Source: a virus
Taxonomy: Duplodnaviria; Heunggongvirae; Uroviricota; Caudoviricetes
Direction: 5' to 3' (one strand)
Length of the DNA stretch: 15,100 bases
Virus record (IMG/VR): IMGVR_UViG_3300015174_000024
This document shows, one piece after another, positions 1 to 15,100 of the stretch. The notes under the pieces are model-generated. The model searched no databases. It was given only the letters and a program-made list of their open reading frames with translations, and had not been told where the DNA came from. Position 1 is the stretch's first letter, and each line of letters opens with the position of its first letter. The translations under genes and the position numbers were made by a program.

Positions 1-165
1 ATGGCAAAGCCGATCATCACGCTCAATGGCCTAAAAATCGTCATTATGTTGGGAATGCTGGTCATTATTCTCTGCGGTATCCGTTTTGCCGCCGAGATCA
101 TCGTGCCGTTTATTCTCGCATTATTTATTGCTGTTATATATAACTTATTTCGCATAACACATTGA
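1..165 (+). pseudogene. tqsA: 5' fragment of AI-2 exporter gene tqsA (ydgG); first ~46 codons intact, then the frame diverges at about nt 138 and stops at 163-165
   Basis: Translation [46 protein letters not shown] matches my memory of the E. coli TqsA N-terminus; the following codons (YNLFRITH, stop) do not, and AT-rich element-like DNA follows. Identification is from memory, not a search. Confidence 0.5.
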
Positions 166-250
166 TTTAATTAAATAATTAACACCGCAAAAAGTGCCAA
201 AAATCGCAAAATGACTACACCAGTGACTACACCGTTCGGTGCACTGTATG

Positions 251-281
251 AAACAACGTGGAACAAATAGACACAAGAAAT
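251..281. repeat. 10-bp-phased direct repeats AACAACgtgg / GAACAAAtag / CACAAGaaat, preceded by TGACTACACC x2 (212-233) and phased A-tracts (189-211)
   Basis: Read directly in the sequence. The same AACAACGTGGAACAA core recurs at 7715-7729 and a related phased array at 13790-13836. Confidence 0.6.
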
Positions 282-863
282 ATACAGGCGGATCATCTTT
301 CCAGGGGGAAGCACACCAATTCATGAGGGGCGTTAATGTCGATATGGGGATCCCCACCTACCGGAATTTTTTTCCGGTTAAACGTTAATCAGGCTGGTGG
401 GCTTTACCTGTTCGGTAGGTGTTATGATTATCGTAATACCTTTCCCCCAATGGGGTAAAAGCATCAACCGTAACGAAAGTCGTTATGGTTGCCACTGATA
501 CCCCAAATTTGGGTATCACGAGTAAGCCCCAAAATCTGGGTGTTACTCTTACTACCCAAACTACGGGTAGTTTCCGTAGTTTCATGGTCGAGTTGCAGAT
601 CTGCAACTCCCCCATTAACCACAGGCGAATTTCCGCCTTCGGTCATTCCTTAATCATCTGCGTAATCATAATGATTATTCAGCAAGCGCAATTTTGCGCT
701 TTGCTTAAAGTTCAGCGAGTTACCGCGCAGACTTCCTCAAATTGAGGTTTCCGAAAATATCAGCGGGTTAGCGATTAAGCTGACCATTAATTAAACTGCG
801 AAAATGTCGTAGTTGTGAGGGGTGTAGCCAACCCATTTTTGGGCCGTCGGGAATATCAACCAG

Positions 864-1145
864 TTACCGCCGCAACCGCTCCGGCTTCTTCCAGTGGTAC
901 GTTATTTTCTCCTTCTCCCGATACATCTCCACGCGGCGACGGTAGGCCAGCAACTCAAGAACTCTGGTTCGTATGTTGCGCATATCCACGCCATTAAGTT
1001 CTATACCATCACGGCGCATCACCTCAGCAACAACACGCGCATAGTTTTCGGCTGTCACGCTGTCCGGCTGCGTGGCCTGTTCGTCAGCCTGCTGGCTGAT
1101 TCCGGCAACGCGGCGGATTAATCCCGTTATTTCGGCTTCTGTCAT
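864..1145 (-). CDS. hypothetical protein, 93 aa, last gene of the packaging operon
   Basis: ATG at 1145 preceded by GAGGT Shine-Dalgarno, 13 nt downstream of the terL stop; no family recognised. Confidence 0.5.
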   Translation of the reverse strand: MTEAEITGLIRRVAGISQQADEQATQPDSVTAENYARVVAEVMRRDGIELNGVDMRNIRTRVLELLAYRRRVEMYREKEKITYHWKKPERLRR

Positions 1146-1158
1146 GCTGCTGACCTCA

Positions 1159-2820
1159 TTACACCCCGCTAAATTCTTCCAGTTTCTGGCGGTGGCTGTC
1201 GCTTATATCAAAAGCAAAATCCTCATGCTCTGCCTGGAATGTACCAAACGCCATCAGCGCCGCCACGCTCGGGTCTATCTTGTTCGGTGATTTTTTCTTG
1301 TTCGGCTTGATATTGGCGTTCGCGTCACTCTGCATCACGACGTTACTCATCGACCAGGACAACACCGGATCGCCACGATGCACAATCACCCTGCGGTTAA
1401 CAAAAACTTCGAACGATTTCGCCGCCGGACTGAATCTGAGGTAGGTTTGCGGGAACGGCTCCACCTCAAAACCTGCCCCCTGTAATTGCGTTCTGAGATG
1501 CGTGGCGTTCCACGTATCAAAGCCCACCAGCCTGATATTAAATTTCTCCGCGTCCTGCATGATGTCATCTCTGATCCGGTCGTAATCAATGCAGTCGCCA
1601 GGCGTTGTGCGTATCCAGCCTGCTTTAGCCCACTGACGATAGATGGCGCGGTTTTTATTGGCGGGGTTCTGTAGCTGAAATTCCGGCAGATAGTGACGGG
1701 AAACCAGCATAATGGTTTTACCGACCGGAAAGGCATAGCACACGCTGGAAATATCGCTGGTTGATGATAAGTCCAGCCCCGCGTAACACTCCTGGCCGTG
1801 TAAATCTTCCTCCGTGAACGTTCCGGCACACTCAGCCCATGCGCCGTTACCCATCCACGGGGTAGCCCCCTGGCACCAGATATTAAATCGCTTTGTCATC
1901 ATCTCCACCCACTGCGACGGAATACCCCGCGCTTTCTGGATGGTTGAGGCCAGTTTTTCACGATCGACGGAAACATCAATATTAGGGTTCGCCTTTATCC
2001 ACATCGCCGGATCATCAACCTCGTTTTCGTCGTCCAGTTCGTAAATCAGTACAAAAATTGAATCGTTAACCTCTTCGCCGTCCAGGATCTGGCAGCAATA
2101 ATCATAGTGCTGCTTACAGGCTGAAACGACGTTGCTGCCTGATGTGGTAATGGCAAATAACAGCCCTTCGGGACGTGCGCCCATCCCCAGCTCAAGCGCG
2201 GAATAAACGCCGTTATCGGGGTGCAAGTGGTATTCGTCCACGATGGAAAGGCTGGGGTTTGTTCCCTCGATGGTTGCCGCTTTTGCTGCCAGCGGCTTTA
2301 ACAGGCTGTTGCTTTTCGGGTGTATCACCTTATGCGCCTGAATATTCACCCGCCTGCGTAACGGTCGGGATAAAAGGCACATCTGACGCGCATCATCAAA
2401 GACGATCCGCGCCTGGTCACGGCTCACCGCTGCGGTGTAGATATCCTGCTGACCGTTCTCCATAATCAGAAACCAGTTAGCCAGAATCGCGGCGGTCGTG
2501 GATTTCGCATTTTTGCGCGGCACTTCGATAAAGGCGCTCGTGTATTTGCGCCGTCCGGTGGCCTTAACCTTAAAGCCGAGGATGCACGCAAAGGCGAACT
2601 GCTGCCACGGCTCCAGCTCAATGGGTCTGCCACGCATCGGTCCTTTTACGTGCGGGCACACCCTGGAAAAGGCAATAAACCGCTCCACAACCTCACGATC
2701 GAACGTGTAAAGGGGGCTTTTAAGGTCCGAAAAGTACCGTTTAACGGCCTGTTTCAGCCGTTTACAGGCCGGAATTTTGCCCGTTTTTACGTCTTCTGCG
2801 TACTTATTCCAGGCGGTCAA
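1159..2820 (-). CDS. terL: terminase large subunit
   Basis: 553 aa; Walker A-like PRKNAKSTT and IVDEYH Walker B-like motif followed by a nuclease-like C-terminal half. Start at 2820 is TTG with a GAGGA SD 5 nt upstream; first in-frame ATG is about 60 codons in. Overlaps the terS 3' end by 17 nt. Confidence 0.9.
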   Translation of the reverse strand: MTAWNKYAEDVKTGKIPACKRLKQAVKRYFSDLKSPLYTFDREVVERFIAFSRVCPHVKGPMRGRPIELEPWQQFAFACILGFKVKATGRRKYTSAFIEVPRKNAKSTTAAILANWFLIMENGQQDIYTAAVSRDQARIVFDDARQMCLLSRPLRRRVNIQAHKVIHPKSNSLLKPLAAKAATIEGTNPSLSIVDEYHLHPDNGVYSALELGMGARPEGLLFAITTSGSNVVSACKQHYDYCCQILDGEEVNDSIFVLIYELDDENEVDDPAMWIKANPNIDVSVDREKLASTIQKARGIPSQWVEMMTKRFNIWCQGATPWMGNGAWAECAGTFTEEDLHGQECYAGLDLSSTSDISSVCYAFPVGKTIMLVSRHYLPEFQLQNPANKNRAIYRQWAKAGWIRTTPGDCIDYDRIRDDIMQDAEKFNIRLVGFDTWNATHLRTQLQGAGFEVEPFPQTYLRFSPAAKSFEVFVNRRVIVHRGDPVLSWSMSNVVMQSDANANIKPNKKKSPNKIDPSVAALMAFGTFQAEHEDFAFDISDSHRQKLEEFSGV

Positions 2821-3160
2821 GCTCGTCCTCTTCTTCTGTTTCCGGTGGGTTTTTACGGCGGCTTATCGGGTCAAAACCGAGCAAGGAGGCCATTTTTATC
2901 ATCACCCTTTCAGCGTCTGATTTCGCGCTTAATGCGGGGTTTCTGCTCTCGCCGCCCTGACTGTTAACAATGCTGAACCCGCGCGCCGCAAGGTCTGCGA
3001 CGGCTTTCCGGTACATGGAGTAGTTGACACAATACAGTTCCAGATTGCTCCAGTCGGCGGGGGTCAGGTCTCCCCGTTCCGCAAGCTGCCGCGATTTTTC
3101 CCGCCACTGCTTCACGGCGATGTCATCCAGGTAGGCGGGGGCTTTCGGTGGTCTTGCCAT
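2804..3160 (-). CDS. terS: terminase small subunit (P27-family-like)
   Basis: 118 aa; LELYC..Y..Y motif and acidic C-terminus typical of P27-type small terminases; sits immediately upstream of and overlapping terL. Confidence 0.75.
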   Translation of the reverse strand: MARPPKAPAYLDDIAVKQWREKSRQLAERGDLTPADWSNLELYCVNYSMYRKAVADLAARGFSIVNSQGGESRNPALSAKSDAERVMIKMASLLGFDPISRRKNPPETEEEDELDRLE

Positions 3161-3448
3161 GCTTATTTTTCGTCAGATTATTTTTCAAAAAATTCCCGTG
3201 CATAAAAATTTGAGGAGGCGTTCGGTGCCCGGCGGGGTCGGGTTTGTCCTGAAAACGCCCCCCACCCCGTCATACAGCCTCATCAGCGATTGCGGAAACA
3301 TTCCATAACCTCGCGGTCACGGTCGGTTAATCGCTTCGCTGTGATGCGTTCTGCGCGTCCTGACGCTTTATCTTTATGCCCTGTTTCCTGTGTCTTCCAT
3401 GCGTCACGCTGCCTTATAAGTCCACGGATAAGGCGGTTTTGTTCCCGC

Positions 3449-3889
3449 TCATTCATCAGCGTCATACATCCAGTTATTGCGGTTAGCGGCCCGTTCTTCC
3501 TCTTCACGAAATCCACCTGCGGCACGCTTGCTTTTTGTTGCCGGATCAAGCCATTTCGTTTTCTGGTTATGACACGCCTGGCACAATGGTTGATGGTTCC
3601 ATTCGGGCCAGAAGAGAACATCATCACCGCCATTAATCGGGATAATGTGATCCACCACCACGGCGGGCGTATATATCCCCTTCTCAAGGCATCGCACGCA
3701 TAACGGGTTTTTACTCAGATACATGGCGCGGTATTTGTCCCACTGTCTGGAATATCCACGCGCGCGGCGGTGTCCTCGTCTGGCATCCTCTGCACGCCAT
3801 GCCGCCCGCCTGTGCTCCTCACACTTGCCGGATTTAACGCGCCTGTTACAGCCTGGTTCTGTGCATCGTCTTAATGGTTGCCACGGCAT
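3449..3889 (-). CDS. HNH endonuclease (packaging-associated)
   Basis: 146 aa; Cys-rich N-terminus, DHIIP...N...H motif and paired Cys (CQACHN); start overlaps the connector stop (TGATG). Confidence 0.85.
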   Translation of the reverse strand: MPWQPLRRCTEPGCNRRVKSGKCEEHRRAAWRAEDARRGHRRARGYSRQWDKYRAMYLSKNPLCVRCLEKGIYTPAVVVDHIIPINGGDDVLFWPEWNHQPLCQACHNQKTKWLDPATKSKRAAGGFREEEERAANRNNWMYDADE

Positions 3890-4185
3890 CAGTACACCCC
3901 CACATCACGGTAAGCCGTCCAGAGTGCGCCTATCGTCATGGGTACGCGTGTTTTTGCGTTATCCGCGACAATCTGGCGATTTTCATACAGGTGAGCGATA
4001 AACATCATGCAGCCAATCTTTATGGCTGGCGTGAACTCCAGCCCGTCATCAAAGCGCCTGCCTATGTGTATCTGGCACGCCTCAAGCGATGCGGCAATGT
4101 ATCCGCTGATTAACTGGTCTTCATCGTCGCCATCGATGCGGCAATGGAGTTTCACTTCTTCCAGGGTGATAAGTTCTTCTGTCAT
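3889..4185 (-). CDS. head-tail connector protein (gp6-like)
   Basis: 98 aa; LITLEEVKLHCRIDGDDEDQLI motif typical of gp6-like connector family; ATGA overlap with upstream gene. Confidence 0.7.
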   Translation of the reverse strand: MTEELITLEEVKLHCRIDGDDEDQLISGYIAASLEACQIHIGRRFDDGLEFTPAIKIGCMMFIAHLYENRQIVADNAKTRVPMTIGALWTAYRDVGVY

Positions 4186-4520
4186 TTTTCCGCGCCCTCA
4201 CGACAAAGAATTTCAAGGCGTGTCCTGGCGGCATCCGGCAGCGGCTGCCCGATGATATTCAGTACACGCCCCGCCAGCGGCCCCGTACTGACCTTTATCC
4301 GGCTGGTGGCGTTGATGTCCTTCCGGTACCGTATCCAGATCCTTACGGTACCAATCGCCAGCTCTGCGCCCGATGAAATGGCCTCCTTGCTGCTGACCAT
4401 GTTCACGCTTGCCCAGAGTGTGTGACCGTCCTCCCACGTTTCGAGTATTTCGCCGGTTATATCCCTGGTCTGTTTCAGGGTCTGAATCGTTATCCTGTCA
4501 CGCAGTCGCCCTATGTTCAT
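4182..4520 (-). CDS. head closure / head-tail adaptor protein
   Basis: Start chosen at ATG 4520 (MNIGRLRDRITIQ...), which forms an ATGA overlap with the portal stop; the ORF-track upstream extension to 4562 lies inside portal. About 112 aa, family-typical N-terminus. Confidence 0.7.
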   Translation of the reverse strand: MNIGRLRDRITIQTLKQTRDITGEILETWEDGHTLWASVNMVSSKEAISSGAELAIGTVRIWIRYRKDINATSRIKVSTGPLAGRVLNIIGQPLPDAARTRLEILCREGAEK

Positions 4521-5728
4521 TCCGGTTTTTCTCCCTCGCTGATTTTTACTTCCTGTTTCCATGCCTGGCTGAACTCATCACCACCATCACGCGGTGACAG
4601 ACCTTCACGTTCGCGGGCTTCGTTCGGACACATAACGCCGGATTTGATGCCGCGCTCATAGGTGGCAAAGCGTTCGCCAGGTGTGGCCCGTAACAGGTCC
4701 GCGCTGTCAAACTCCACCTGATACCGGATACCAGGTACAGGCGAGGCCACCAGCAGGGCGTTTTTTATCTGCTGCTCAAAGTTCGCCAGCCACGGGCGCA
4801 TCGTCATGGTGAGAAATGCGCGGCTTGCCTCGCTGAAATTGCTGTAGGTGCTGTTGCTGTATTCCTGCAAAAAAATCGGCGAGACGTTGAACATTCGGGC
4901 GATGTCTTCAATGGTGAAGCGACGGGAGGCCAGCCATTCAGCATCCTGATTACTCATGCCCAGCTGCTGATAGCTCATACCCCCTTCAAGGATGGGCGTT
5001 TTTCCGGCGTTTCTGGCCCCTTTGTAGCGTTCCAGTGCGGCTAATGCCTGTTTGCCCTTCACGCCGTCCAGCCATTCGCCTGACGTGATAACCCCTGCCG
5101 CCATCATGCCATCACGCATCACGCTCGCGCCGTGGCGTTGTTGGGCCAGCCCAAGCCCCAGCGATTCGCGGCAGATGGTTACAGGTGAGCGCCCCATAAA
5201 GCCGTCATCCGTGGAGTAACGAAGGTGAAGTACTTCCCACGGTAAATAGTTGCGGGTGTTTCCGGTGTAGGCGTCAGTGATGCAGTAGCGCCAGTTGTGT
5301 TCGCCTGTCTGCTCCACGTTCACCGACTGCGGCGGGTAAGGATGTAAAGCCGCCGGAAAACCATCACGCCCCCACTGAATCACCGCATAAGCATTACCGT
5401 TTAACAGGCAGTGGCGGATCATCATTCGCTTAAACTGGTAGGGGGTTTGCCATGCGTTCGGGCGCTCGTTGAGGATGTGATCGACCGGATGAGAATCAAG
5501 CCACTCGCGGGCCTCCTTCCCCTTCTCATTGCGTACCAGGTACAGGTAACACGGCATGGTAGCCACCGCCTCAGAGATGACCGTCACGGCGTTCATGACG
5601 GCGGGCAGTGATTCCGCTGTCCCCGATGATACGTACTCACCCGCCCCCGTGTTCGATGTGCCAGCCAGCGCCATAAATTCATCCAGCGTCATGCTGCGCT
5701 GCTCTTTTTTTCTTCTGAAAGGCCACAT
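4517..5728 (-). CDS. portal protein (HK97 family)
   Basis: 403 aa; size, position between protease and adaptors, GGGGG SD 6 nt upstream of ATG 5728. Confidence 0.85.
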   Translation of the reverse strand: MWPFRRKKEQRSMTLDEFMALAGTSNTGAGEYVSSGTAESLPAVMNAVTVISEAVATMPCYLYLVRNEKGKEAREWLDSHPVDHILNERPNAWQTPYQFKRMMIRHCLLNGNAYAVIQWGRDGFPAALHPYPPQSVNVEQTGEHNWRYCITDAYTGNTRNYLPWEVLHLRYSTDDGFMGRSPVTICRESLGLGLAQQRHGASVMRDGMMAAGVITSGEWLDGVKGKQALAALERYKGARNAGKTPILEGGMSYQQLGMSNQDAEWLASRRFTIEDIARMFNVSPIFLQEYSNSTYSNFSEASRAFLTMTMRPWLANFEQQIKNALLVASPVPGIRYQVEFDSADLLRATPGERFATYERGIKSGVMCPNEAREREGLSPRDGGDEFSQAWKQEVKISEGEKPE

Positions 5729-5729
5729 A

Positions 5730-6287
5730 TCACACCCCCGCTAAATCCACCCACCAGCGGCGATTATCCGCACGCGGCATTTTTTCGGGGTGCTGCTCAT
5801 ACAGGGAACGGCGGGCCAGCTCCACGCCGGAATCGGGGTAAGCCGGTACCGATGTAACGGTAATTTCGTACAGTTCCGCCACCAGCACGGTGCGCACGCA
5901 TGGATCTGTTGTGGTATCCCATACATCCTTACGGGAGCGAAAGCCAAAGCTCATCCCCGAGATGTCCCCACGCTTAACCAGTTCGATAACGTCGCGCCCT
6001 GTACTGGTATCCGGTGGGGTCAGTTCAAAGCGTAACCCTGTTTCGTCCTCTTCCAGTTTCAGCGTGCCGGAACGGGTGCGCCCCAGTAACATGCTGTGGT
6101 CATGCTCATACAGGCCTCGAACGTCATTACCCGCCGCAAGCCACTCAGTAAACGCCCCCCGCTGGAATTTTTCGTAAAACTCCCCCCATAGCAGTTCTGA
6201 AAGCTTATCCCAGCGAACAACGTAGCCCGTCAGCGTACCGGCTCCGCTGGTAGTGATTTCCGATGACCGGATTTCCATACTCTTCAT
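5730..6287 (-). CDS. prohead maturation protease (HK97 family)
   Basis: About 185 aa; GYVVRWDK and HDHSMLLGRT motifs. Start placed at ATG 6287 (GGTGA SD); ORF is open to ATG 6302, which lacks an SD. Confidence 0.8.
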   Translation of the reverse strand: MKSMEIRSSEITTSGAGTLTGYVVRWDKLSELLWGEFYEKFQRGAFTEWLAAGNDVRGLYEHDHSMLLGRTRSGTLKLEEDETGLRFELTPPDTSTGRDVIELVKRGDISGMSFGFRSRKDVWDTTTDPCVRTVLVAELYEITVTSVPAYPDSGVELARRSLYEQHPEKMPRADNRRWWVDLAGV

Positions 6288-6302
6288 AATTTTTTCACCC
6301 AT

Positions 6303-6330
6303 AAAACACTAAAGGGGCTTTTAAGCCCCT
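6303..6330 (-). terminator. hairpin plus U-rich tract between capsid and protease genes (possible attenuator)
   Basis: Minus strand reads AGGGGC-ttaaaa-GCCCCT followed by TTAGTGTTTT, directly after the capsid stop. Confidence 0.4.
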
Positions 6331-6341
6331 TCTGTATGCTG

Positions 6342-7499
6342 TTAATCGTCGTCCTGTGGCAGTTCCAGAATCTTGATCGCGTTCGAATCCACCACGCCAC
6401 CGCCTAAATATTTCTGCGTGAAAATTTTGATGAAGCCCGGCTCTGTGAGGTTGTCCGGTCTGGTGCGAACACCTGTTTCGTGATCAACAATGTAGTAACC
6501 GCGTTTGAAGTCACCCAGGGCAATAACGTTATCCGGCATAAACTCCAGATATTCGACCGGAAGGCCCAGTAACGTATCAGGATCACCCGCCTGTAAACGG
6601 TCGCGCCAGATGTAATCACCGTTCGCGTTCTTCACCTTCTGAAGTTTTGCCGCCGTCGTGGAGTTAACCACCCAGACCGCGTTTTTGCGGTATTTTTTAC
6701 GTAATGCAAATTTCAGGTCGATCAGCGGGTCCGCAGATGTCCACGCCAGAGATTCGGAAGGTTTAATTACCTGCAACGTACCAAAATCACGCTCTTTGTC
6801 GTTCTTCTCTGCACGGGGTACGGATAAAAAGCCTTTTGCTTTTTTGTCACCGTCGCCCACAACCAGATCGCTTTCTTCGGTTTCCGTGAAGTTGTCGCCA
6901 ATCTCGCCCGTCAGCCATGAAAGGATGTCCACATCGGAAAAATCCACGATTTCCTGCGTGGTGCGCGGGTACGCATAGACCGGATACAGCTTAATGCTCA
7001 CCTCGTTAATCTGCGGGGTGCTGGTCTGTTCGCGTGCCTTACCCTCTTCACCGTGGTTAACGGTCGCACCGCCAGCGGAAACAAGCTGCTTAAACTCGTT
7101 GCTGCTGATTTTCTTCACGGTACAGATGCGGCGCATGGTGGATTCATCCGTCAGCATTCGCATGATTTCGGTGTTCAGTTCGGGGATAACGGTATAACCA
7201 CCATCAGCGGGAACGCCTGTACTTAATGCGCGGGTTTCACCTGTCAGAATGTAGTGACGTAGTTCGGCTGGGTCAGTGGTCTGACTGCTTTTACCTGGCT
7301 TGCTGCGCTCTTCGTCTGCAATGGCTTCAAGGCGGGAAATGTCTTTATCGAGGGATTCAGCTTTAGCGCGTAATTCGTCAAATTTTGCGCCCTCAGCATC
7401 GTTAAGACTGCGGTTTTCTTTTTCCGCGTTCTCCAGCATGTCGCGCATCTGATTTTTAATGGCGGTTTTCTGCTGGCGTAATTCGATTATTCTCGGCAT
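6342..7499 (-). CDS. major capsid protein (HK97 fold) with N-terminal coiled-coil delta/scaffold domain
   Basis: 385 aa; charged coiled-coil N-terminal ~100 aa, then capsid-like body; followed by protease and portal. Confidence 0.9.
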   Translation of the reverse strand: MPRIIELRQQKTAIKNQMRDMLENAEKENRSLNDAEGAKFDELRAKAESLDKDISRLEAIADEERSKPGKSSQTTDPAELRHYILTGETRALSTGVPADGGYTVIPELNTEIMRMLTDESTMRRICTVKKISSNEFKQLVSAGGATVNHGEEGKAREQTSTPQINEVSIKLYPVYAYPRTTQEIVDFSDVDILSWLTGEIGDNFTETEESDLVVGDGDKKAKGFLSVPRAEKNDKERDFGTLQVIKPSESLAWTSADPLIDLKFALRKKYRKNAVWVVNSTTAAKLQKVKNANGDYIWRDRLQAGDPDTLLGLPVEYLEFMPDNVIALGDFKRGYYIVDHETGVRTRPDNLTEPGFIKIFTQKYLGGGVVDSNAIKILELPQDDD

Positions 7500-7536
7500 A
7501 AAAAAAGTCCTGGGGTTAAGTAAGGAACTCCAGGAC
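7500..7536 (-). promoter_or_regulatory. terminator-like stem-loop plus T7 run immediately upstream of the capsid start codon
   Basis: Minus strand: GTCCTGG - 16 nt loop - CCAGGAC - TTTTTTT - ATG. The 3' arm contains the only SD-like AGGA. Confidence 0.35.
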
Positions 7537-7713
7537 GCGGCAAAAACTCAACCGTTTTTCATAAGGAAATCAGCAATCGCACCGATCGTTTTCCCGCCTG
7601 GTAATGAATATTGGCGAGAACATTAACAGGCGGAAAAGTGGCCCCAGCGTCCTGGCACCACGGGCGAGAATAATCATGATTCAGTTCGGGTAAAATATGC
7701 CGATCCGCTCAGT

Positions 7714-7740
7714 GAACAACGTGGAACAACCACGAACAAA
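7714..7740. repeat. 10-bp-phased direct repeats GAACAACgtg / GAACAACcac / GAACAAAtaa, about 220 bp upstream of the capsid operon
   Basis: Read directly; shares the 15-mer AACAACGTGGAACAA with 252-266. Confidence 0.6.
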
Positions 7741-7754
7741 TAATTTACAAAACA

Positions 7755-7780
7755 TGACAAAAAGCCGGATTGCTCCGGCT
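7755..7780 (-). terminator. rho-independent terminator after the PerC-like gene
   Basis: Minus strand AGCCGGA-gcaa-TCCGGCT followed by TTTTTGT, 7 nt after the stop codon. Confidence 0.55.
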
Positions 7781-7786
7781 GTGTGA

Positions 7787-8059
7787 TTATCTGTCCTGGT
7801 AATTTCGCCATATTTCATTACCAGCACCATCCATACCCATTTCGGCATAAGTGCGATCGACCGCCTTTTTCAGGTCTCCGTAGTTATCCGGCGGCTCCGG
7901 TGGCCTCTGTGCCTTCCTGGAACATTCCAGCCGTCGCATCGTGATGTGATGCCGTTCCTTGTCTGTCTCCACCAGTTGCATGACTTCACCCCATCGCGCC
8001 GACGCTCTCCGGTAAAAGCCTTTCGCCTCCAGTTCTTCCGCTATGCGGTCATGTACCAT
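7787..8059 (-). CDS. PerC-family transcriptional regulator (Pch-like)
   Basis: About 90 aa; N-terminal AEELEAKGFYRRASARW resembles the PerC/Pch motif as I recall it. ATG 8059 has a GAGGGG SD; the ORF track starts at GTG 8068. Confidence 0.5.
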   Translation of the reverse strand: MVHDRIAEELEAKGFYRRASARWGEVMQLVETDKERHHITMRRLECSRKAQRPPEPPDNYGDLKKAVDRTYAEMGMDGAGNEIWRNYQDR

Positions 8060-8071
8060 CGTCCCCACCCC

Positions 8072-8482
8072 TCAGAACGGAATATCATCACCGTAAGGGT
8101 CATCGCCTCCCGCTGGTGGCTGATTACCCTGTGTGCCTGTGGTCTTGCGTCGGCTCCCACCAGGACGTGCCGCACGGGCACTGATTACGCTGTCTGCAAT
8201 AACCTGATAACCCTGCCGCGTTTCCCCGTTCTGTCCGGTCCACTGGCTGACCTGCATCGTGCCGGATACGCTGGCAACGTCGCCTTTTTGATGTTTAGCC
8301 AGGAAGTCGGCCTGCTTACCAAATGCGATGACCGATAGCCATAACGTCGCCTGTCCATCCTGTGCCTGGCTGCATGGCAGCGATACCGCCATACGCGCCA
8401 GCGTCATCGGTGTACCCTTGCTGGTCTGTTTTACCTGCGGGTCGTCCACCAGCCGCCCGTAAGCTGCTATCTGTGCTGTCAT
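8072..8482 (-). CDS. ssb: single-stranded DNA-binding protein
   Basis: 136 aa; OB-fold-like core (WLSVIAFGK), Gly/Pro-rich linker and the diagnostic acidic C-terminus ending DDIPF; ATGA overlap with the upstream gene. Confidence 0.8.
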   Translation of the reverse strand: MTAQIAAYGRLVDDPQVKQTSKGTPMTLARMAVSLPCSQAQDGQATLWLSVIAFGKQADFLAKHQKGDVASVSGTMQVSQWTGQNGETRQGYQVIADSVISARAARPGGSRRKTTGTQGNQPPAGGDDPYGDDIPF

Positions 8483-8757
8483 GATTCCACCTCTCCGGTT
8501 TTAACGTTGATGGTTGTTACCTGTTCCGCTTCGGCAATCTCCCGCTCTGTCAGCGTGGCAAAATTTGCCGCCGTCGTGGTCATGAATGCGCTTATCAGTT
8601 CGGGATGTGCTTTCGCGTATCCTTCCCCCGCGTGGCGGTCTATCGTTCTGATTGCCACCTTTAAAGCGTGCTCTGTCATGTCTAACGCGCGATATTTCGG
8701 TTCTGTTCTGTCTCTGCGTTTTTTGAGTGATTTATTAAATTTCCCTGAAGTGTGCAT
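8479..8757 (-). CDS. hypothetical protein, 92 aa
   Basis: ATG 8757 with a GAGGGGG SD about 12 nt upstream; first gene after the iteron region; coupled to ssb. Confidence 0.45.
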   Translation of the reverse strand: MHTSGKFNKSLKKRRDRTEPKYRALDMTEHALKVAIRTIDRHAGEGYAKAHPELISAFMTTTAANFATLTEREIAEAEQVTTINVKTGEVES

Positions 8758-8805
8758 ATTTATTTTTACCCCCTCGTTTAAAAAGTTTTGAGTTGTGCCT
8801 CCCCT

Positions 8806-9032
8806 TGTCTACCTTATCTACCTTAGTGGCCCTCATACCAGTAATGGCGCGGCTTTCAGCGGGGTAGAGTGCTTTTATCCACTATCTACCCCGTGTCTAC
8901 CTCCCTGTCTGATTCAGGTAAAATCAGGTAGAGAGGGTAGATAGTGGGTAGACAGTAAAAAAAGGTTATCTACCTAACTTAATGCACTGAATTAAATGTA
9001 TTTTTCTTTACTCAGGTAGACAGGGTAGACAG
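8806..9032. repeat. iteron array (about 11 copies of GGTAGAnA / TnTCTACC in both orientations) with an AT-rich stretch; candidate replication origin
   Basis: Octamers at 8806, 8815, 8863 (partial), 8884, 8894, 8927, 8937, 8948, 8967, 9015, 9024; AT-rich segment 8975-9012; lies immediately downstream of the primase gene. Confidence 0.55.
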
Positions 9033-9045
9033 CAATTACAAAAAA

Positions 9046-10800
9046 TTATAAAAACGCGTCGCACTCGTCTGTTGTTATTGCGTTAGTCTGCGTTACTCCC
9101 TTAACTTTCCGCGTAATATATTCATGTCCGTAAACTTTCGCGGCTGGCTTCATAGCCTTGCCAAAGTCATTTACGTTTAGCGGTTTGCTCCTGCCTGCGT
9201 ACGCCATAAACGCCAGATAGACGCGGTAAAGGCTGTTTCTGGTCGTGTACTTCACTGAATCGCCACCGCCGCCCATCATCAGGCCGCGTGCTTCCTCCAG
9301 AAAATTCAGGAACTGGCAAAACTCAATAACCGGATCCGTCTGTTGCTTTATTGCCAGAGCTTCATCACCGTCACGCTGTTCCAGTAGTAAAGCCCGTGCC
9401 TTCTCAGGGTCGGTAAAGTTCGCCAGCAATCGGCGGATAATGACAGGGATTTCAGCCGCGATCTTTTCCGGTAGCTCCCTGTCTTTTTCGGCCTCACTGA
9501 CGATATTGTCGAAACGGAAAATCACGCGACGACGTGCCACACCTCCGGCCCGTTCGGTGAATATCATCGGGTTATTGTTGGTCGCCAGCACCACCGCCCT
9601 GATTACCGCCGTGAAACGCTTTTCGTATTTCGGGTTAATTTCCACGGGGTCACCGCCCGTGATTTTCTTGATGCCCGTTCCTTCGCCTGTATATTTCGGC
9701 TGGTCAGCCAGGACGATAAGACGACTCCCGACAACCTGCGCACGTCCACCAGCATCATCAAGCGATGTCATTTCAGCGCTTACCGTGTTCTGTTTCCCTG
9801 CCAGAAGGCTGGCTATGTGTGTGAATGTACTTTTACCGCTCCCGCCGTCTCCGGTGGCCTCAATAAACATCTGCCAGTCGTACCGGTTCGCCATAATCAT
9901 GTACAGCGCGGCACATATACGCATCATCTTGCGCGGGTCTTTTCCGGCTGCGTGCTCAAGCCATTTATGAAAGTTTGGCGCGTTATCGCGGATGTTCTCC
10001 CCTGGTGCTGGTGGCGTGTACTCAATGCCGTTGTGCGTGGTGATCCAGTTCTCCGGCGTGTGCGGGGAAAATTCCCCCGTTTTCAGGTCAAGCGCACCAT
10101 TGGCGAACGGCAACAAATCGCCGGACGGCTCGCCCATTGGTTCGGCAATAACTTTTAACGCTTCCACGGCGTTATTGATTACGCGCTTGCTGAAAGTGGC
10201 CCTGTGCTCTGAATAGATCGCCACCATTTCGCGGCTAAGTTCCATTGTGCTGACCGGACACCATACCCCGCCGCGCCATACGTGAACGATTTCACTTTCA
10301 GGATGTACGCAAACGCCATCAAAGCGATCGGCAAGCAGCTGCGCGCGCTCACTGTCCGCCATCTGCGAAAGTTGCGCCTTTTGCTTTACCGGAAGCTCAA
10401 TGACCAGACCATCAGAAAGATTCTGGCGCTCACGGGCCAGATATTCGCGCCAGTTCTCCACCTTCTGACCGTGCATACCATCAGGGTAAAAATTTGCATC
10501 CTGTACGCCTGCCGCCGCCAGCTTCTGACCAATCCCCTTTATCATTACTGGCGCAAGATATCCGGCCCTGAATATGCGCACGGATTCTCTGCCTTCCGGC
10601 ACAATTTGCAGCTTATCCAGTTCGGATAACTGCTGCTCCCCAAGCCACACAGGAGGCTCATTATCTCCGGCCATACGCGCGTCATGTTCCTGCCATTGTT
10701 TTGCGTGTGACCAGGCATCACTACCCGCAAAAATAATGACTTCTGTTTCTTTGTGTTTTATGCCGCGTGACTGCTGTTTTACGTTCGGTGCCAGTTTCAT
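9046..10800 (-). CDS. primase/helicase replication protein (P4-alpha-like, Pri-Rep)
   Basis: 584 aa; central Walker A GDGGSGKST and a D5-like NTPase region, with an N-terminal primase-like domain; ATGA overlap with the upstream small ORF. Confidence 0.85.
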   Translation of the reverse strand: MKLAPNVKQQSRGIKHKETEVIIFAGSDAWSHAKQWQEHDARMAGDNEPPVWLGEQQLSELDKLQIVPEGRESVRIFRAGYLAPVMIKGIGQKLAAAGVQDANFYPDGMHGQKVENWREYLARERQNLSDGLVIELPVKQKAQLSQMADSERAQLLADRFDGVCVHPESEIVHVWRGGVWCPVSTMELSREMVAIYSEHRATFSKRVINNAVEALKVIAEPMGEPSGDLLPFANGALDLKTGEFSPHTPENWITTHNGIEYTPPAPGENIRDNAPNFHKWLEHAAGKDPRKMMRICAALYMIMANRYDWQMFIEATGDGGSGKSTFTHIASLLAGKQNTVSAEMTSLDDAGGRAQVVGSRLIVLADQPKYTGEGTGIKKITGGDPVEINPKYEKRFTAVIRAVVLATNNNPMIFTERAGGVARRRVIFRFDNIVSEAEKDRELPEKIAAEIPVIIRRLLANFTDPEKARALLLEQRDGDEALAIKQQTDPVIEFCQFLNFLEEARGLMMGGGGDSVKYTTRNSLYRVYLAFMAYAGRSKPLNVNDFGKAMKPAAKVYGHEYITRKVKGVTQTNAITTDECDAFL

Positions 10801-11096
10801 TTTTTACCCCTGAATCCGTTAATCATGGTTTTCAGCTTCTGGATGTTTGCCCGTGCCCTGGCGTTGCTGGTGGACACGTTATGCGGCGCGGTCTGTACCA
10901 GAGAAAAATCACGCCGGAACTGATAAACAGGCATCACGCAATCATATTCGTAACCTTCACGGCGGTAGGTTACGCGCCGTTCTTCCACGCCCTTAATCAT
11001 TACCGTGCCGCCGTACTGGTCGCGGTAAATATCGCCGCGCGTAAATTTAGGGTGAGTGTTGCCACTGGCAGTTAAGCCAGAATATTTAAGTTTCAT
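10797..11096 (-). CDS. hypothetical protein, 99 aa
   Basis: GGAGA SD 9 nt upstream of the ATG; translationally coupled to primase. Confidence 0.5.
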   Translation of the reverse strand: MKLKYSGLTASGNTHPKFTRGDIYRDQYGGTVMIKGVEERRVTYRREGYEYDCVMPVYQFRRDFSLVQTAPHNVSTSNARARANIQKLKTMINGFRGKK

Positions 11097-11101
11097 TATT
11101 T

Positions 11102-11335
11102 TTATTCTCCGGTGTGCTGTTCTTTATATCTGTCGTGCAATAGATCTATTTCTTGCAGTTCCATTATTACAGGCTCAAGAAGCGTTATTAATGCCGTGGC
11201 AATTCTTGATTTTTGTTTGTCGCGTTCATTGTCGCCAAGTGTTTCAAGCCATATGCGCAATATTTCCAGCATGTTTTCACTGTGAGAAAGTGCAAGAAAT
11301 GCGCGGTCTATTGTTTCGTGGTAAATATCACGCAT
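11102..11335 (-). CDS. hypothetical protein, 77 aa
   Basis: GAGGA SD; overlaps the upstream gene stop. Confidence 0.5.
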   Translation of the reverse strand: MRDIYHETIDRAFLALSHSENMLEILRIWLETLGDNERDKQKSRIATALITLLEPVIMELQEIDLLHDRYKEQHTGE

Positions 11336-11561
11336 GGCTTACATCCTCAGGAAATTTTCTTCTATAACGCGCCTCTGCCACATATTCCGCATAATCGGCG
11401 GCGATATTCAGTACATCAAGCCCCGTTGATTTATATTCTCTCGTGGAAAGTAAGAAAAAAGCCGCTCTAATAAGTTCTGGCATTGACGAAAGCGCATCAG
11501 CCGCATCATCAGGAACGCCGGAAAATTCCTGTTTCAGGGAATTAAAACGATCATCACGCAT
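11328..11561 (-). CDS. hypothetical protein, 77 aa
   Basis: GGGGGG SD 5 nt upstream; overlaps neighbours. Confidence 0.5.
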   Translation of the reverse strand: MRDDRFNSLKQEFSGVPDDAADALSSMPELIRAAFFLLSTREYKSTGLDVLNIAADYAEYVAEARYRRKFPEDVSHA

Positions 11562-11919: not shown

Positions 11920-12136
11920 GGTGCACCTCCTGCACATCAGCCATGATAATTTTTCCGGCCTTATCCAGTGCCTGATCGGCTTTTAGCTGCACAAATGCTA
12001 AATAATGGAAGATGCATTCTGATTCTCTGGCTGCGTGTTTATGCGCCCTGTCAGCAATAACAGAAATATCAATAAGCGCGTGCATCAGCGTAGTGAGCGC
12101 GGCGGCGGCTGCGTCCGGTGTGGTTTTATTGCACAT
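11912..12136 (-). CDS. hypothetical protein, about 74 aa
   Basis: Start placed at ATG 12136 (MCNKTT...) with an AGGAGG SD; the ORF-track start at 12178 is further upstream. Confidence 0.5.
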   Translation of the reverse strand: MCNKTTPDAAAAALTTLMHALIDISVIADRAHKHAARESECIFHYLAFVQLKADQALDKAGKIIMADVQEVHHA

Positions 12137-12326: not shown

Positions 12327-12435
12327 AATCGTTACTCCTGTTAACGGTTTGGTTAGACGCCCCGCTACTGCCGCAAACAGTTCGGGGCGTTGTCGTTTAC
12401 ATCCTCTTACTGAGGTGTGATTTAAATTAAATTCA

Positions 12436-13319: not shown

Positions 13320-13508
13320 TTAATGAACTGCCTTGCAGCTATCCTTCCAGGCCAGAACCTCGGATAAAGACCAGCCAACGGAACGACCGCTAAGTTTACG
13401 ACGTGATGGGAATTGTCCGGCCTTTTCCAGGCGGTAGCGGCATGAGCGGCTAAGGCCTGTTAGCTTTTCGCATTCTTTTTCACGTATAAACCGATCAGTG
13501 CTTAACAC
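13320..13508 (-). CDS. alpA: AlpA-family (Xis/Vis-like) regulator/excisionase
   Basis: 62 aa; LTGLSRS..YRL..G.FP....L....VGW...EV..W pattern; GTG start with AAGGGGG SD; located next to int. Confidence 0.8.
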   Translation of the reverse strand: MLSTDRFIREKECEKLTGLSRSCRYRLEKAGQFPSRRKLSGRSVGWSLSEVLAWKDSCKAVH

Positions 13509-13882: not shown

Positions 13883-15100
13883 TTATTTTCTTCTGGCTAC
13901 TGGTAGCGTGGTTACGTTTTCATGTGTTCCCGCCAGTATCCCTAACCGCTCCGTCCACATATCCAGCGCATTGCGTTTAGCATCCAGATAACGGGAATGA
14001 TTATAAACTCGCTGCATTCCTGGCATCTGGTGGCCTGTAAGCTGCTCCACGACATGCGGATCAACGCCTAAATCGTTCAGCATGGTTGTAAAGGTGCGCC
14101 GGATGTCATGCAGTGACCAGTGAGGATGATTAAGCCTCCTGTGCGCTAATCTTCCATACTGCGATACGCTGGCCTCCTGTTTCACTTCCCCCAGCAATAA
14201 GCCCGTGTGCCTGTTCTGCTCCACCAGCTGCGTGACGAACGGCAGGATCGCTTCCGGTATGGGCCGGAATATTGCGACCTTCGTTTTGCTGTGCTCCTTC
14301 GGAACGGTCCATAGCATTTCCGTAAAATCCCACTCCCCGATCTCCGATAACCTCAGTTCTACCGTTCTGGCTCCGAAGACAATCAGGAGGCGGATTAACG
14401 CGACGTAGTAAGGGGAGAATATTTTTTTGTCCAGTGCCTGCAATAATTCGCCAAGTTCTTTGTTACTTAAGACACGTTCGCTTATATCCGGTTTTTTCCC
14501 AACGTCCGCCACGTTCAGATCGTCCAGAACGTTGCTGATTGCATAGCGCCGCCTACGGCAGAACTTAAGCGCCTGTTTGCACGCCTGTAGCACGAATCCG
14601 GCAGTAACAGGCGTTCGCTTTGCCACCTGGTCAAAACAGGCCAGCCAGTGCCGTAGCTCGCATTTATCCAGCGGCATAGCACCAATCTGCTGTATTACGT
14701 GATTATTAAGTCGCCTTTTCAGGGCGATATAATCCACGCGGTTTTCCTTTACGTAATACTCAAGCCAGTAGGTGAGCGCATCGCCAACCGTTACGGGCTT
14801 TAACGCTTCCTGTACGGTGTAATTCATCTCATGACGTGGATTTTTCCCCTCAGCCAGCCATGTGCGACACTGTGCGGCTTTTTCCCTGGCTGCTTTCAGG
14901 CTCAGATCAGGATAACTTCCCAGCTTAATGCGTTCGGGTCGTGTCTCCCTTCCCGTTCCGGCCCTGTATGTGAAATACCAGGTCAATTTCCCTGATGTTA
15001 AATATTTCACGCTCAGGTTTCCGCCATCACTATAAAACGTGTTTTTCTCCGCTGGCTTACCATGAAGTTTCCTTAGCAAGGTATCGCTCAGTTTGTTCAT
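13883..15100 (-). CDS. int: tyrosine integrase, P4-like with N-terminal arm-binding domain
   Basis: 405 aa; HDIRRTF, LTGHQ and C-terminal VYNHSRY catalytic-Tyr motifs; the ATG is the last 3 nt of the window. Confidence 0.9.
   Translation of the reverse strand: MNKLSDTLLRKLHGKPAEKNTFYSDGGNLSVKYLTSGKLTWYFTYRAGTGRETRPERIKLGSYPDLSLKAAREKAAQCRTWLAEGKNPRHEMNYTVQEALKPVTVGDALTYWLEYYVKENRVDYIALKRRLNNHVIQQIGAMPLDKCELRHWLACFDQVAKRTPVTAGFVLQACKQALKFCRRRRYAISNVLDDLNVADVGKKPDISERVLSNKELGELLQALDKKIFSPYYVALIRLLIVFGARTVELRLSEIGEWDFTEMLWTVPKEHSKTKVAIFRPIPEAILPFVTQLVEQNRHTGLLLGEVKQEASVSQYGRLAHRRLNHPHWSLHDIRRTFTTMLNDLGVDPHVVEQLTGHQMPGMQRVYNHSRYLDAKRNALDMWTERLGILAGTHENVTTLPVARRK

What the first reader, a model, noticed from the sequence alone, without database searches (positions are those of the whole stretch)
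1..165. Element junction lies inside the tqsA coding sequence
The first 46 codons match TqsA as I recall it, then the frame diverges and stops, with AT-rich, repeat-rich DNA following. Either the island disrupts tqsA, or the att core overlaps the tqsA 5' end and the element supplies a replacement 5' end at the other junction. Integration into the 5' part of a protein-coding gene is unusual for P4-type integrases, which commonly target tRNA or gene 3' ends.
Basis: partly seen in the sequence, partly recalled or inferred. Interest (0 to 1): 0.5.

Follow-up and report, generated by a model that had tools for sequence, protein, structure and literature searches.

The report
Phage satellite island splits tqsA gene
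The window starts at the left junction of a 15-kb phage-satellite island that has inserted inside the E. coli AI-2 exporter gene tqsA and knocks it out without repairing it, a real but already catalogued and fairly common event (about 5% of complete E. coli genomes).

Summary
Window 1-137 is tqsA nt 1-137, 100% identical to K-12. The break is inside codon 46, and the ORF then runs 8 island-encoded codons to a stop at 163-165.

The whole window is one capsid-forming PICI-type satellite: P4-type integrase, AlpA, primase, capsid, protease, portal, HNH, TerS and TerL, with no tail or lysis genes.

attR lies outside the window. In near-identical islands it sits about 188 nt past the integrase ATG. 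The 9-bp core TGCTGTTAT (window 129-137) is repeated there and followed by tqsA nt 138-1035. A metagenome contig carries the matching attP.

The element supplies no replacement 5' end. In-frame TGA and TAA codons precede the core at attR, and the island encodes nothing TqsA-like. The longest remaining ORF starts at Val51, so it lacks helix H1 and most of H2.

254 of 5423 complete E. coli genomes have tqsA split this way. 57 genomes also carry a nonsense codon in the 3' fragment.

tqsA disruption by integrative elements is already published (Bobay 2013; Mageeney 2020, as a 'regulated gene integrity' candidate). Verdict: real, correctly read, already known, low interest.

The parts
1..137 (+). 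5' fragment of tqsA (nt 1-137; codons 1-45 plus 2 nt of codon 46), still behind its own promoter
   Evidence: 100% identical to MG1655 tqsA nt 1-137; island-free genomes match only this part of the first 1000 nt
129..137 (.). 9-bp identity core TGCTGTTAT of attL, the presumed strand-exchange region, shared by attB, attL, attR and attP
   Evidence: Four-way comparison: attB (MG1655), attL (window), attR (L001, L003, L004) and attP (metagenome contig L013)
1..165 (+). Chimeric truncated ORF: TqsA residues 1-46 plus YNLFRITH and a stop; PGAP annotates it as a pseudogene in relatives
   Evidence: no Pfam hit; the exact peptide is on at least 1000 public contigs
138..158 (.). Island DNA next to the core that is specific to the tqsA-targeting attP type; together with the core it forms a ~30-nt cassette that differs from the phoQ-targeting sister attP
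   Evidence: Homology with the phoQ/roxA-type island resumes only at window 156; P-arm homology stops exactly at the core
156..493 (.). Conserved P' arm of attP, about 90% identical in islands that use another attB
   Evidence: blastn against L007 and L008; also present in the attP contig L013
211..233 (+). Tandem 11-mers (A/G)TGACTACACC with 12-nt period, candidate arm-type integrase binding sites; a matching pair lies on the P arm about 128 nt upstream of the core at attR
   Evidence: (5 matches in L004 against 0.21 expected); the sister islands carry TTAACTACACC instead, alongside changes in the integrase arm-binding domain. The binding function is inferred.
440..660 (.). Array of five consecutive hairpins in non-coding island DNA; function unknown, possibly a bidirectional terminator or insulator
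   Evidence: Fold z = -8.9 and -10.3; no Rfam match; the 123-nt core 492-614 is found in 673 genomes
864..1145 (-). 93-aa ORF of unknown function (phrog_1561), conserved at the integrase-distal end of several E. coli PICI types
   Evidence: annotated homologues in L007, L008, L009 and L012
1159..2820 (-). Terminase large subunit
   Evidence: Pfam TerL_ATPase and TerL_nuclease
2804..3160 (-). Terminase small subunit (P27 family)
   Evidence: Pfam Terminase_4
3449..3889 (-). HNH endonuclease (packaging accessory)
   Evidence: Pfam HNH
3889..4562 (-). Head-tail adaptor (3889-4185) and head closure protein (4182-4562)
   Evidence: PHROGs phrog_40 and phrog_25
4517..5728 (-). Portal protein
   Evidence: Pfam Phage_portal, 2.5e-90
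5730..6302 (-). HK97-type prohead protease
   Evidence: phrog_80; annotation in relatives
6342..7499 (-). Major capsid protein
   Evidence: Pfam Phage_capsid, 1.5e-61
7787..8482 (-). PerC-like regulator (7787-8068) and SSB (8072-8482)
   Evidence: PHROGs; annotation
9046..10800 (-). D5-type primase/replication protein
   Evidence: Pfam D5_N, DUF5906, Pox_D5
13320..13508 (-). AlpA-family regulator/excisionase
   Evidence: Pfam Phage_AlpA, 1.9e-17; phrog_2790
13883..15100 (-). P4-type tyrosine integrase (405 aa from this ATG; PGAP starts it 12 nt further upstream, outside the window). The P arm and attR core lie beyond the window end.
   Evidence: Pfam Arm-DNA-bind_3 and Phage_integrase; 99.8-100% identical in three other tqsA islands; attR in L004

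Best explanation
Window 1-165 is attL of a ~15.16-kb capsid-forming PICI-type phage satellite. The element's own P4-type tyrosine integrase inserted it site-specifically into tqsA by recombination between a 9-bp core (TGCTGTTAT) in attP and the identical sequence at tqsA nt 129-137 (codons 43-46).

Integration splits tqsA into two parts. The first is a promoter-proximal 137-nt stub that now encodes a 54-aa chimeric peptide. The second is a promoterless 3' fragment (nt 129-1035) about 15 kb away, beyond the integrase gene. Nothing in the element restores the lost N-terminus, so the AI-2 exporter is inactivated for as long as the island is resident. Precise excision across the two core copies would rebuild an intact gene.

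Shown here: the junction position, the core duplication, the attP sequence, the absence of restoration, and the prevalence. Inferred: loss of TqsA function, strand exchange within the 9 bp, the arm-site role of the GTGACTACACC repeats, and helper-phage-dependent excision by analogy with EcCIEDL933. tqsA inactivation is most likely a tolerated side effect of using a dispensable, monocistronic gene as the landing site, not a regulatory device.
For: 1. Junction: window 1-137 equals tqsA 1-137; island-free genomes match only that part.

2. attR in L001, L003 and L004: core TGCTGTTAT followed by tqsA nt 138-1035. L004 matches tqsA 129-1035 at 98.9% and 1-137 at 100%.

3. attP observed directly: contig L013 reads integrase, P arm, TGCTGTTAT, P' arm, 93-aa ORF. 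It is circularly permuted relative to a linear island.

4. No restoration: in-frame TGA TAA lies just upstream of the core at attR. The longest in-frame ORF starts at GTG Val51. No sigma-70-like promoter was found facing the fragment. tblastn of TqsA against the island gives nothing below E = 1.9. Pfam AI-2E_transport covers profile positions 2-326 at 268.8 bits in intact TqsA, but 40-326 at 237.8 bits in the fragment.

5. Structure: H1 (Thr7-Phe29) forms the main cytoplasmic pentamer contact and H2 spans Ala31-Trp57 (PMC9475539). The break at residue 46 removes H1 and more than half of H2.

6. Dedicated specificity: integrases of four tqsA islands are 99.8-100% identical. The 91%-identical sister integrase sits after the phoQ stop codon with its own core and its own arm repeats.

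7. Prevalence: 254 of 5423 genomes lack a contiguous tqsA 5' region. 247 carry this attR junction.

8. Decay: the S298 TCG-to-TAG nonsense codon in the L003 3' fragment occurs in 57 genomes.

9. Element class: gene content matches the description of cf-PICI EcCIEDL933.

10. No polar effects are expected: tqsA is flanked by oppositely oriented genes, ydgV/mdtJ upstream and pntB downstream.
Against: There are no expression or phenotype data. An N-terminally truncated protein starting at Val51 or Met54 could in principle be made if transcription enters from the island, and its inactivity is inferred from structure only. The Pfam score ratio, intact to fragment, is only 1.13. attR is not in the window itself, so it is taken from relatives (L004 is 99.9% identical over window 11900-15100). 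The attP contig could derive from a tandem array, not necessarily from an excised circle. Most 3' fragments remain open reading frames (L001, L004), so decay is limited to one clone-like group.
Confidence: 0.85

Rival explanations
1. Regulated gene integrity, or a phage-regulatory switch. The satellite sits in tqsA because reversible inactivation is useful: AI-2 export is off while the island is integrated and is restored by regulated excision, tuning quorum sensing and biofilm.
For: Integration lies inside the conserved domain without restoration. A tight integrase clade uses one exact position in mosaic islands. Core duplication allows exact repair. An attP form exists. AlpA and the integrase are intact. 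Mageeney et al. 2020 list tqsA as an RGI candidate on these grounds. tqsA deletion has reported phenotypes, including more biofilm, motility and intracellular AI-2 (Herzberg 2006 as cited in PMC9475539).
Against: In the characterised cf-PICI, induction requires a helper phage and alpA. Excision therefore normally accompanies a lytic cycle, in which restoring a host gene has no obvious benefit. 57 genomes carry a nonsense codon in the 3' fragment, so excision could no longer restore tqsA there. A sister integrase does well with a harmless site after phoQ. There is no evidence here for excision without loss or replication.
Confidence: 0.1
2. The element restores tqsA by supplying a replacement 5' coding end, or a separate N-terminal piece, at the other junction, so the gene stays functional.
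For: This is the usual strategy of integrases that target coding sequences (PMC7192596). An annotated 60-aa ORF runs toward the core in the tqsA frame at attR.
Against: That ORF ends in TGA followed by TAA, two and one codons before codon 44. It overlaps the integrase start in antisense and has no TqsA similarity. PGAP marks both tqsA halves as pseudogenes in every carrier inspected.
Confidence: 0.02
3. Accidental or secondary-site integration by an integrase whose real target lies elsewhere, such as the phoQ 3' site, so that the tqsA hit is an off-target event.
For: Bobay et al. 2013 considered rarely occupied gene-disrupting loci to be possible secondary sites. A 91%-identical integrase uses the phoQ-roxA site.
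Against: tqsA islands carry their own attP core, identical to tqsA over 9 bp, within a distinct ~30-nt core cassette. They also have distinct arm repeats and a distinct integrase allele. The same junction occurs in 247 genomes on islands with different replication modules. An attP with the tqsA core exists free of chromosomal flanks.
Confidence: 0.02
4. The 137-nt piece is a duplicated fragment or an assembly artefact, and an intact tqsA exists elsewhere in the same genome.
For: None found.
Against: With the full tqsA query no genome has more than 2 places. Where tqsA is split, the best place is nt 129-1035. Both junctions recur in hundreds of complete genomes.
Confidence: 0.01

Closest known systems
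IGEs 'Eco282.16.tqsA', 'Eco33.11.tqsA' and 'Eco557.15.tqsA' of Mageeney et al. 2020 (TIGER; NAR 48:4052, PMC7192596); tqsA is also listed as phage-disrupted in Bobay et al. 2013 (PMC3603311)
   Same: E. coli islands of 11-16 kb integrated in tqsA, scored as disrupting the UPF0118/AI-2E domain without restoration, with attB:attLR score ratios of about 1.27. Same gene, same size class, same conclusion.
   Different: Those papers do not describe the element type, the core or the arms in the text available here. This window is one more instance, here typed as a cf-PICI with attB, attL, attR and attP all resolved.
Capsid-forming PICI EcCIEDL933 (Alqurainy et al., bioRxiv 10.1101/2022.09.08.507074)
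   Same: About 15 kb with int, alpA and rep plus major capsid, protease, portal, head-tail connectors, HNH, TerS and TerL, and no tail genes (one search compared).
   Different: No direct sequence comparison with EcCIEDL933 was made. The paper mentions six E. coli attB sites but the table was not available, so I cannot say whether tqsA is among them. Helper dependence was not tested here.
PICI at the phoQ-roxA intergenic site of E. coli O157:H7 and S. flexneri (L007, L005; 'Eco160.11.phoQ' in Mageeney's supplement)
   Same: The integrase is 91% identical and the C-terminal 115 residues are identical. P and P' arms are about 90% identical, with the same AlpA and the same 93-aa ORF end module.
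   Different: The core is AAATATGTCC, placed right after the phoQ stop codon, so no gene is disrupted. The arm repeats are TTAACTACACC. It is an 11-kb classical PICI without the full capsid and terminase set.
Phage regulatory switches / active lysogeny (Listeria phi10403S in comK; Stx prophage in E. coli mlrA)
   Same: A site-specific element sits inside a coding sequence, and exact excision would restore the gene (PMC7192596).
   Different: Here there is no evidence for regulated, non-lethal excision and re-integration, and one lineage has let the 3' fragment decay.
Helper-embedded PICIs in prophage late genes (PMC10111431)
   Same: Related E. coli PICIs also use gene-interior att sites. The example in O157:H7 146N4 (L012) shares the hairpin module and the end ORF.
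   Different: The target there is a helper prophage terminase gene, which gives cis-regulatory coupling. tqsA is a host housekeeping-type gene with no link to the helper.

Membership tests
Capsid-forming PICI (cf-PICI) | Size about 10-15 kb | tested here: met
   15,159 bp from window 138 to the attR core position inferred from L004; 15.2-15.8 kb in L003 and L001
Capsid-forming PICI (cf-PICI) | Integrase plus AlpA regulator plus a replication (pri/rep) module | tested here: met
   Pfam Arm-DNA-bind_3 and Phage_integrase, Phage_AlpA, D5_N/DUF5906/Pox_D5
Capsid-forming PICI (cf-PICI) | Own capsid and packaging module: major capsid, protease, portal, head-tail connectors, HNH, TerS, TerL | tested here: met
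   Pfam and PHROGs hits for all eight functions
Capsid-forming PICI (cf-PICI) | No tail or lysis genes | tested here: met
   No such gene among the ORFs or PGAP annotations of the near-identical islands
Capsid-forming PICI (cf-PICI) | att site not used by prophages | tested here: inconclusive
   247 of 254 interrupted genomes carry this satellite-type attR. No phage record covers more than 13% of the window, at 75-79% identity. The other 7 genomes were not inspected individually.
Capsid-forming PICI (cf-PICI) | Induced by a helper phage and packaged in its own small capsids joined to helper tails | not testable with these tools
   Needs induction and transfer experiments. The attP-form contig L013 shows only that an excised or tandem form of a tqsA-type island exists.
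P4-type (DUF4102) tyrosine integrase | N-terminal Arm-DNA-bind_3 domain plus C-terminal Phage_integrase catalytic domain | tested here: met
   PF13356 at 1.4e-18 (residues 4-91); PF00589 at 2.9e-16 (residues 210-371, profile 2-170 of 172)
P4-type (DUF4102) tyrosine integrase | Catalytic R-K-H-R-H/W-Y residues | not tested
   Only read by eye in the translation (ARTVE, HDIRRT, RVYNHSRY). No residue-level alignment to a characterised integrase was made.
Regulated gene integrity (RGI) case, as defined by Mageeney et al. 2020 | Integration inside a conserved domain without restoration | tested here: met
   Pfam AI-2E_transport 268.8 against 237.8 bits, ratio 1.13, with profile positions 2-39 lost; in-frame stops at attR
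Regulated gene integrity (RGI) case, as defined by Mageeney et al. 2020 | Two or more independent elements of a tight integrase clade at the same position | tested here: met
   Islands with different replication modules (primase in L001/L003, RepA helicase in L004, a classical PICI in L013) share the junction and 99.8-100% identical integrases
Regulated gene integrity (RGI) case, as defined by Mageeney et al. 2020 | Excision is regulated and actually switches the gene back on in surviving cells | not testable with these tools
   Sequence shows only that exact repair is possible. The nonsense allele in 57 genomes argues against selection for restorability in that lineage.

The most novel reading that the evidence does not exclude
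The satellite's residence in tqsA is a genuine reversible switch. Helper-phage signals or stress trigger AlpA/Int-mediated excision in a subpopulation, rebuilding tqsA and changing AI-2 export, lsr expression and biofilm behaviour. A phage satellite would then control a quorum-sensing output of its host. A further long shot is that the 54-aa H1-H2 stub, still expressed from the tqsA promoter, interferes with pentamer assembly of paralogous AI-2E transporters.
Probability: 0.08. Interest if true: 0.55.

Novelty: already known. Interest (0 to 1): 0.18.

Why it matters
The result matters mainly for annotation and strain phenotyping. About 1 in 20 complete E. coli genomes, including what looks like a clonal group whose names include ST1193 (all 40 best whole-window matches have the same length and identity), are natural tqsA knock-outs because of this satellite family. 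AI-2 export, biofilm and motility data from such strains should be read with that in mind.

The pair of 91%-identical integrases is also a compact natural example of att-site retargeting. One is benign, inserting after the phoQ stop codon, and one is gene-disrupting, inserting at tqsA codons 43-46. They differ in a ~30-nt attP core cassette, in the arm repeats and in the N-terminal arm-binding domain, and could be tested experimentally.

None of this opens a long-standing question. The tqsA target and the element class are both already described.

Tried and rejected
- Rfam scans of the whole window (gathering threshold) and of 130-900 (E up to 1) found nothing.
- The attP junction pattern found nothing in IMG/VR. 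The one metagenome scan did find it.
- megablast of the window against 50,697 phage records gave only 2-13% coverage at 75-79% identity, so there is no close phage relative and no named record.
- The integrase search of GTDB species genomes returned a single locus, S. flexneri. It turned out to be the phoQ/roxA-type sister, not a tqsA insertion.
- The promoter scan of the attR P arm found no sigma-70-like site facing the 3' fragment. This is a weak negative.
- I looked for an island-encoded TqsA-like N-terminus by tblastn at E up to 10 and found none.
- A covariation test of the hairpin module was attempted, but the copies are too similar (92% mean identity) to be informative. Only one possible compensatory A-T to C-G change was seen.
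- The Herzberg 2006 paper on the tqsA deletion phenotype is not held, so the phenotype is cited second-hand from PMC9475539.
- Table 2 of Mageeney 2020 and Table S2 of the cf-PICI paper were not readable, so their exact entries for tqsA and for the attB list could not be quoted.

Full report
**1. The observation**

Window 1-165 is an ORF of 54 codons plus a stop. It translates to [54 protein letters not shown]. A megablast of window 1-1000 against 5,426 complete E. coli genomes hit 5,424 of them. In island-free genomes such as K-12 MG1655, only nt 1-137 match, at 100%, under the annotation 'tqsA: AI-2 transporter TqsA'.

Direct comparison with MG1655 places the break between nt 137 and 138, inside codon 46. 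ATT becomes ATA, both Ile, so 46 residues are TqsA. Eight island-encoded codons and TGA follow. Downstream DNA is locally AT-rich: 25% GC in 138-200 and 43% in 138-860. It contains a tandem GTGACTACACC pair at 211-233 and many inverted repeats.

**2. What the window is**

All substantial genes lie on the minus strand, in this order along the window:
- a 93-aa ORF
- TerL and TerS
- HNH
- head-tail adaptor and head closure protein
- portal and prohead protease
- major capsid protein
- PerC and SSB
- a D5-type primase
- AlpA
- an integrase with Arm-DNA-bind_3 and Phage_integrase domains, ending at nt 15100

PGAP annotation of near-identical copies agrees. There are no tail or lysis genes. This matches the published architecture of capsid-forming PICIs, whose prototype EcCIEDL933 is 15.4 kb with int, alpA, rep and a full capsid and terminase set without tails.

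The window runs from the tqsA ATG to the integrase ATG, so the right junction is not included. No complete genome is identical throughout. Window 1-12147 is 99.9% identical to FORC_069 (L001) and WP3-W18-CRE-03 (L003). Window 11900-15100 is 99.9% identical to Z1323HEC0108 (L004), whose island has a RepA helicase in place of the primase. These satellites are mosaic, but all three relatives sit in tqsA.

**3. The far junction and the att sites**

In L001, L003 and L004 the sequence just past the integrase start reads ...AACACTAAATGATAAAA TGCTGTTAT TCTTAACCCGCTGG..., and tqsA homology resumes at nt 129. The 9-bp core TGCTGTTAT (window 129-137) is therefore duplicated. Using L004 as proxy, the second copy would lie at window-equivalent 15288-15296, and the inserted DNA is about 15.16 kb.

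I searched for the predicted attP (P-arm end + core + P'-arm start). IMG/VR returned nothing. One metagenome contig, CYGL01000683.1 (L013), reads integrase, P arm, TGCTGTTAT, P' arm, 93-aa ORF in one piece. Its two ends abut each other when mapped on a related island, so it is circularly permuted. That confirms the attP structure. It also shows that a tqsA-type island exists as an excised circle, a concatemer or a tandem array.

Both arms carry a tandem pair of GTGACTACACC 11-mers in direct orientation, 73 nt right and about 128 nt left of the core. In L004 there are 5 matches against 0.21 expected by chance. I interpret them as arm-type sites for the integrase N-terminal domain. This is an inference.

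**4. Does the element repair tqsA?**

It does not.
- At attR the tqsA reading frame is closed by TGA and TAA, two and one codons upstream of codon 44.
- The annotated 60-aa 'hypothetical protein' that runs into those stops is antisense to the integrase start and has no TqsA similarity.
- The longest ORF containing the 3' fragment starts at GTG Val51 and is 294 aa.
- No sigma-70-like promoter faces it (weak evidence).
- tblastn of TqsA, full length or residues 1-60, against the islands gives nothing better than E = 1.9.
- Pfam AI-2E_transport covers profile positions 2-326 (268.8 bits) in intact TqsA and 40-326 (237.8 bits) in the fragment. The 54-aa stub has no hit.

In the cryo-EM structure (7NB6), helix H1 (Thr7-Phe29) of the five protomers forms the main cytoplasmic contact and the central hydrophobic plug. 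H2 (Ala31-Trp57) is the membrane-embedded horizontal helix (PMC9475539). The break at residue 46 removes H1 and more than half of H2. Loss of function is therefore strongly expected, though not measured.

tqsA is flanked by oppositely oriented genes (ydgV/mdtJ and pntB), so no polar effects are expected. PGAP marks both halves as pseudogenes in every carrier inspected.

**5. How common it is, and whether the gene is kept**

With tqsA nt 1-300 as query, 5,169 of 5,423 genomes have a contiguous match and 254 (4.7%) do not. With full tqsA as query no genome has more than two places. Where tqsA is split, the best place is nt 129-1035, so there is no intact spare copy. The attR junction (P arm + tqsA) is present in 247 genomes. 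The exact 54-aa stub occurs on at least 1000 public contigs.

In L003 the 3' fragment carries S298 TCG-to-TAG. That allele is in 57 complete genomes, and the 12 listed include genomes that are also top island carriers. At least that lineage no longer maintains a restorable tqsA.

**6. A sister integrase with a conventional site**

The only hit in GTDB species genomes was S. flexneri (L005). Many O157:H7 genomes (L006, L007) carry the same type: an integrase 91% identical to the window's. The homologous P arm stops exactly at the core, and beyond it lies the roxA (ycfD) upstream region, not tqsA.

That 11-kb island lies between phoQ and roxA. Its core is AAATATGTCC, which starts right after the phoQ stop codon.

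The two attP types are about 90% identical in both arms and differ only in roughly 30 nt around the core (window 129-~158). The arm repeats differ (TTAACTACACC against GTGACTACACC). Of 35 amino-acid differences between the integrases, 19 fall in the first 75 residues, which form the arm-binding domain. The last 115 residues are identical. By contrast the integrases of the four tqsA islands are 99.8-100% identical.

The tqsA insertion is therefore the work of a dedicated, retargeted integrase and attP pair, not an off-target accident.

**7. Mechanism and rivals**

Best-supported account: site-specific integration by the satellite's P4-type integrase at a 9-bp core inside tqsA. The consequence is an unrepaired, in principle reversible knockout of a dispensable monocistronic gene.

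The main rival is that this is a regulatory switch ('regulated gene integrity'), as proposed for tqsA on bioinformatic grounds by Mageeney et al. 2020. The sequence features they require are met here. Three points make collateral inactivation more likely:
- cf-PICI induction depends on a helper phage and alpA, so excision normally accompanies lysis.
- A nonsense allele has spread in the 3' fragment.
- The sister lineage thrives at a harmless site.

Restoration by the element, off-target integration, and duplication or artefact are each contradicted by sequence, as set out above.

**8. Comparison with what is known, and novelty**

Bobay et al. 2013 already listed tqsA among conserved E. coli genes disrupted by integrated phage-like elements. 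Mageeney et al. 2020 list 11-, 15- and 16-kb E. coli IGEs in tqsA with UPF0118 domain disruption. The element class was described by Alqurainy et al..

This analysis adds detail only:
- the exact core and all four att sites
- the attP contig
- the structural consequence for TqsA
- prevalence in current complete genomes
- the decay allele
- the comparison with the phoQ-site sister integrase

The finding is real and correctly read, but already known. Interest is low.

**9. Seen in passing**

Window 440-660 folds into five consecutive hairpins, with z = -8.9 and -10.3 on the two strands, and has no Rfam match. Its 123-nt core (492-614) is 92-94% conserved and occurs in 673 genomes. It is present twice in strain KSC9 (L009). 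It is also present in a PICI embedded in a prophage terminase gene in O157:H7 146N4 (L012). In each case it lies next to a homologue of the 93-aa ORF. Its position at the island end, facing incoming tqsA transcription, suggests a terminator or insulator role, but this is untested.

Noticed in passing
window 440-660 (core 492-614): Five consecutive hairpins in non-coding island DNA, with fold z = -8.9 and -10.3 and no Rfam match. The 123-nt core is 92-94% conserved, occurs in 673 of 5426 genomes, is duplicated in strain KSC9 (L009 369-489 and 801-925), and also lies at the end of other PICI types. Possibly a terminator or insulator, or a protein-binding or packaging site.
   Followed up: partly
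L007 9672-9720 and 20870-20900; L005 2800-3000; compared with window 129-158: A 91%-identical sister integrase integrates right after the phoQ stop codon (core AAATATGTCC). The two attP types differ only in a ~30-nt core cassette and in the arm 11-mers (TTAACTACACC against GTGACTACACC). The integrase differences cluster in the N-terminal arm-binding domain. This is a natural att-retargeting pair.
   Followed up: partly
L003 18655-18657 (tqsA codon 298): A TCG-to-TAG nonsense mutation in the orphaned tqsA 3' fragment. The exact allele is present in 57 complete genomes. The listed strains overlap the island carriers; some names suggest ST1193, but sequence types were not checked.
   Followed up: partly
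window 12148-12789 compared with L001/L003; window 8500-11900 compared with L004: The island is a mosaic. The left 12.1 kb matches the FORC_069/WP3 type (primase). The integrase-proximal 3.2 kb matches the Z1323HEC0108 type, whose own replication module is a RepA helicase. No complete genome holds this exact combination.
   Followed up: partly
window 12126-13262 (-): A 378-aa open frame with no Pfam hit. Only its C-terminal ~65 residues resemble phage repressor/Icd-like families. PGAP splits the equivalent region of L004 into a short Icd-like gene, an Icd-like pseudogene and an opposite-strand YlcI/YnfO gene.
   Followed up: no
window 864-1145 (-): A 93-aa protein of unknown function (phrog_1561), conserved next to the P' arm in cf-PICIs, in the classical PICI at phoQ and in the prophage-embedded PICI. 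It behaves as part of the att-proximal end module.
   Followed up: partly
L012 14668-27138: O157:H7 strain 146N4 carries a related PICI inserted inside the large terminase gene of a lambdoid prophage. This is the 'helper-embedded PICI' configuration described in PMC10111431.
   Followed up: no
L013 (CYGL01000683.1) whole contig: An 11.3-kb metagenome contig is a circularly permuted classical-type PICI carrying the tqsA-type integrase and attP. The same integration module therefore travels on satellites with different packaging strategies.
   Followed up: partly
window 15089-15100 and beyond: The window ends exactly at the integrase ATG. PGAP starts the gene 12 nt further upstream at GTG (MSRA-MNKL...), outside the window. 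A 60-aa 'hypothetical protein' annotated antisense to the integrase start at attR is probably spurious.
   Followed up: partly
L001 7940-9695: In FORC_069 a lambdoid prophage about 10 kb upstream of tqsA has integrated into ynfG, which is annotated as a partial pseudogene. This is a second gene-disrupting integration in the same neighbourhood.
   Followed up: no
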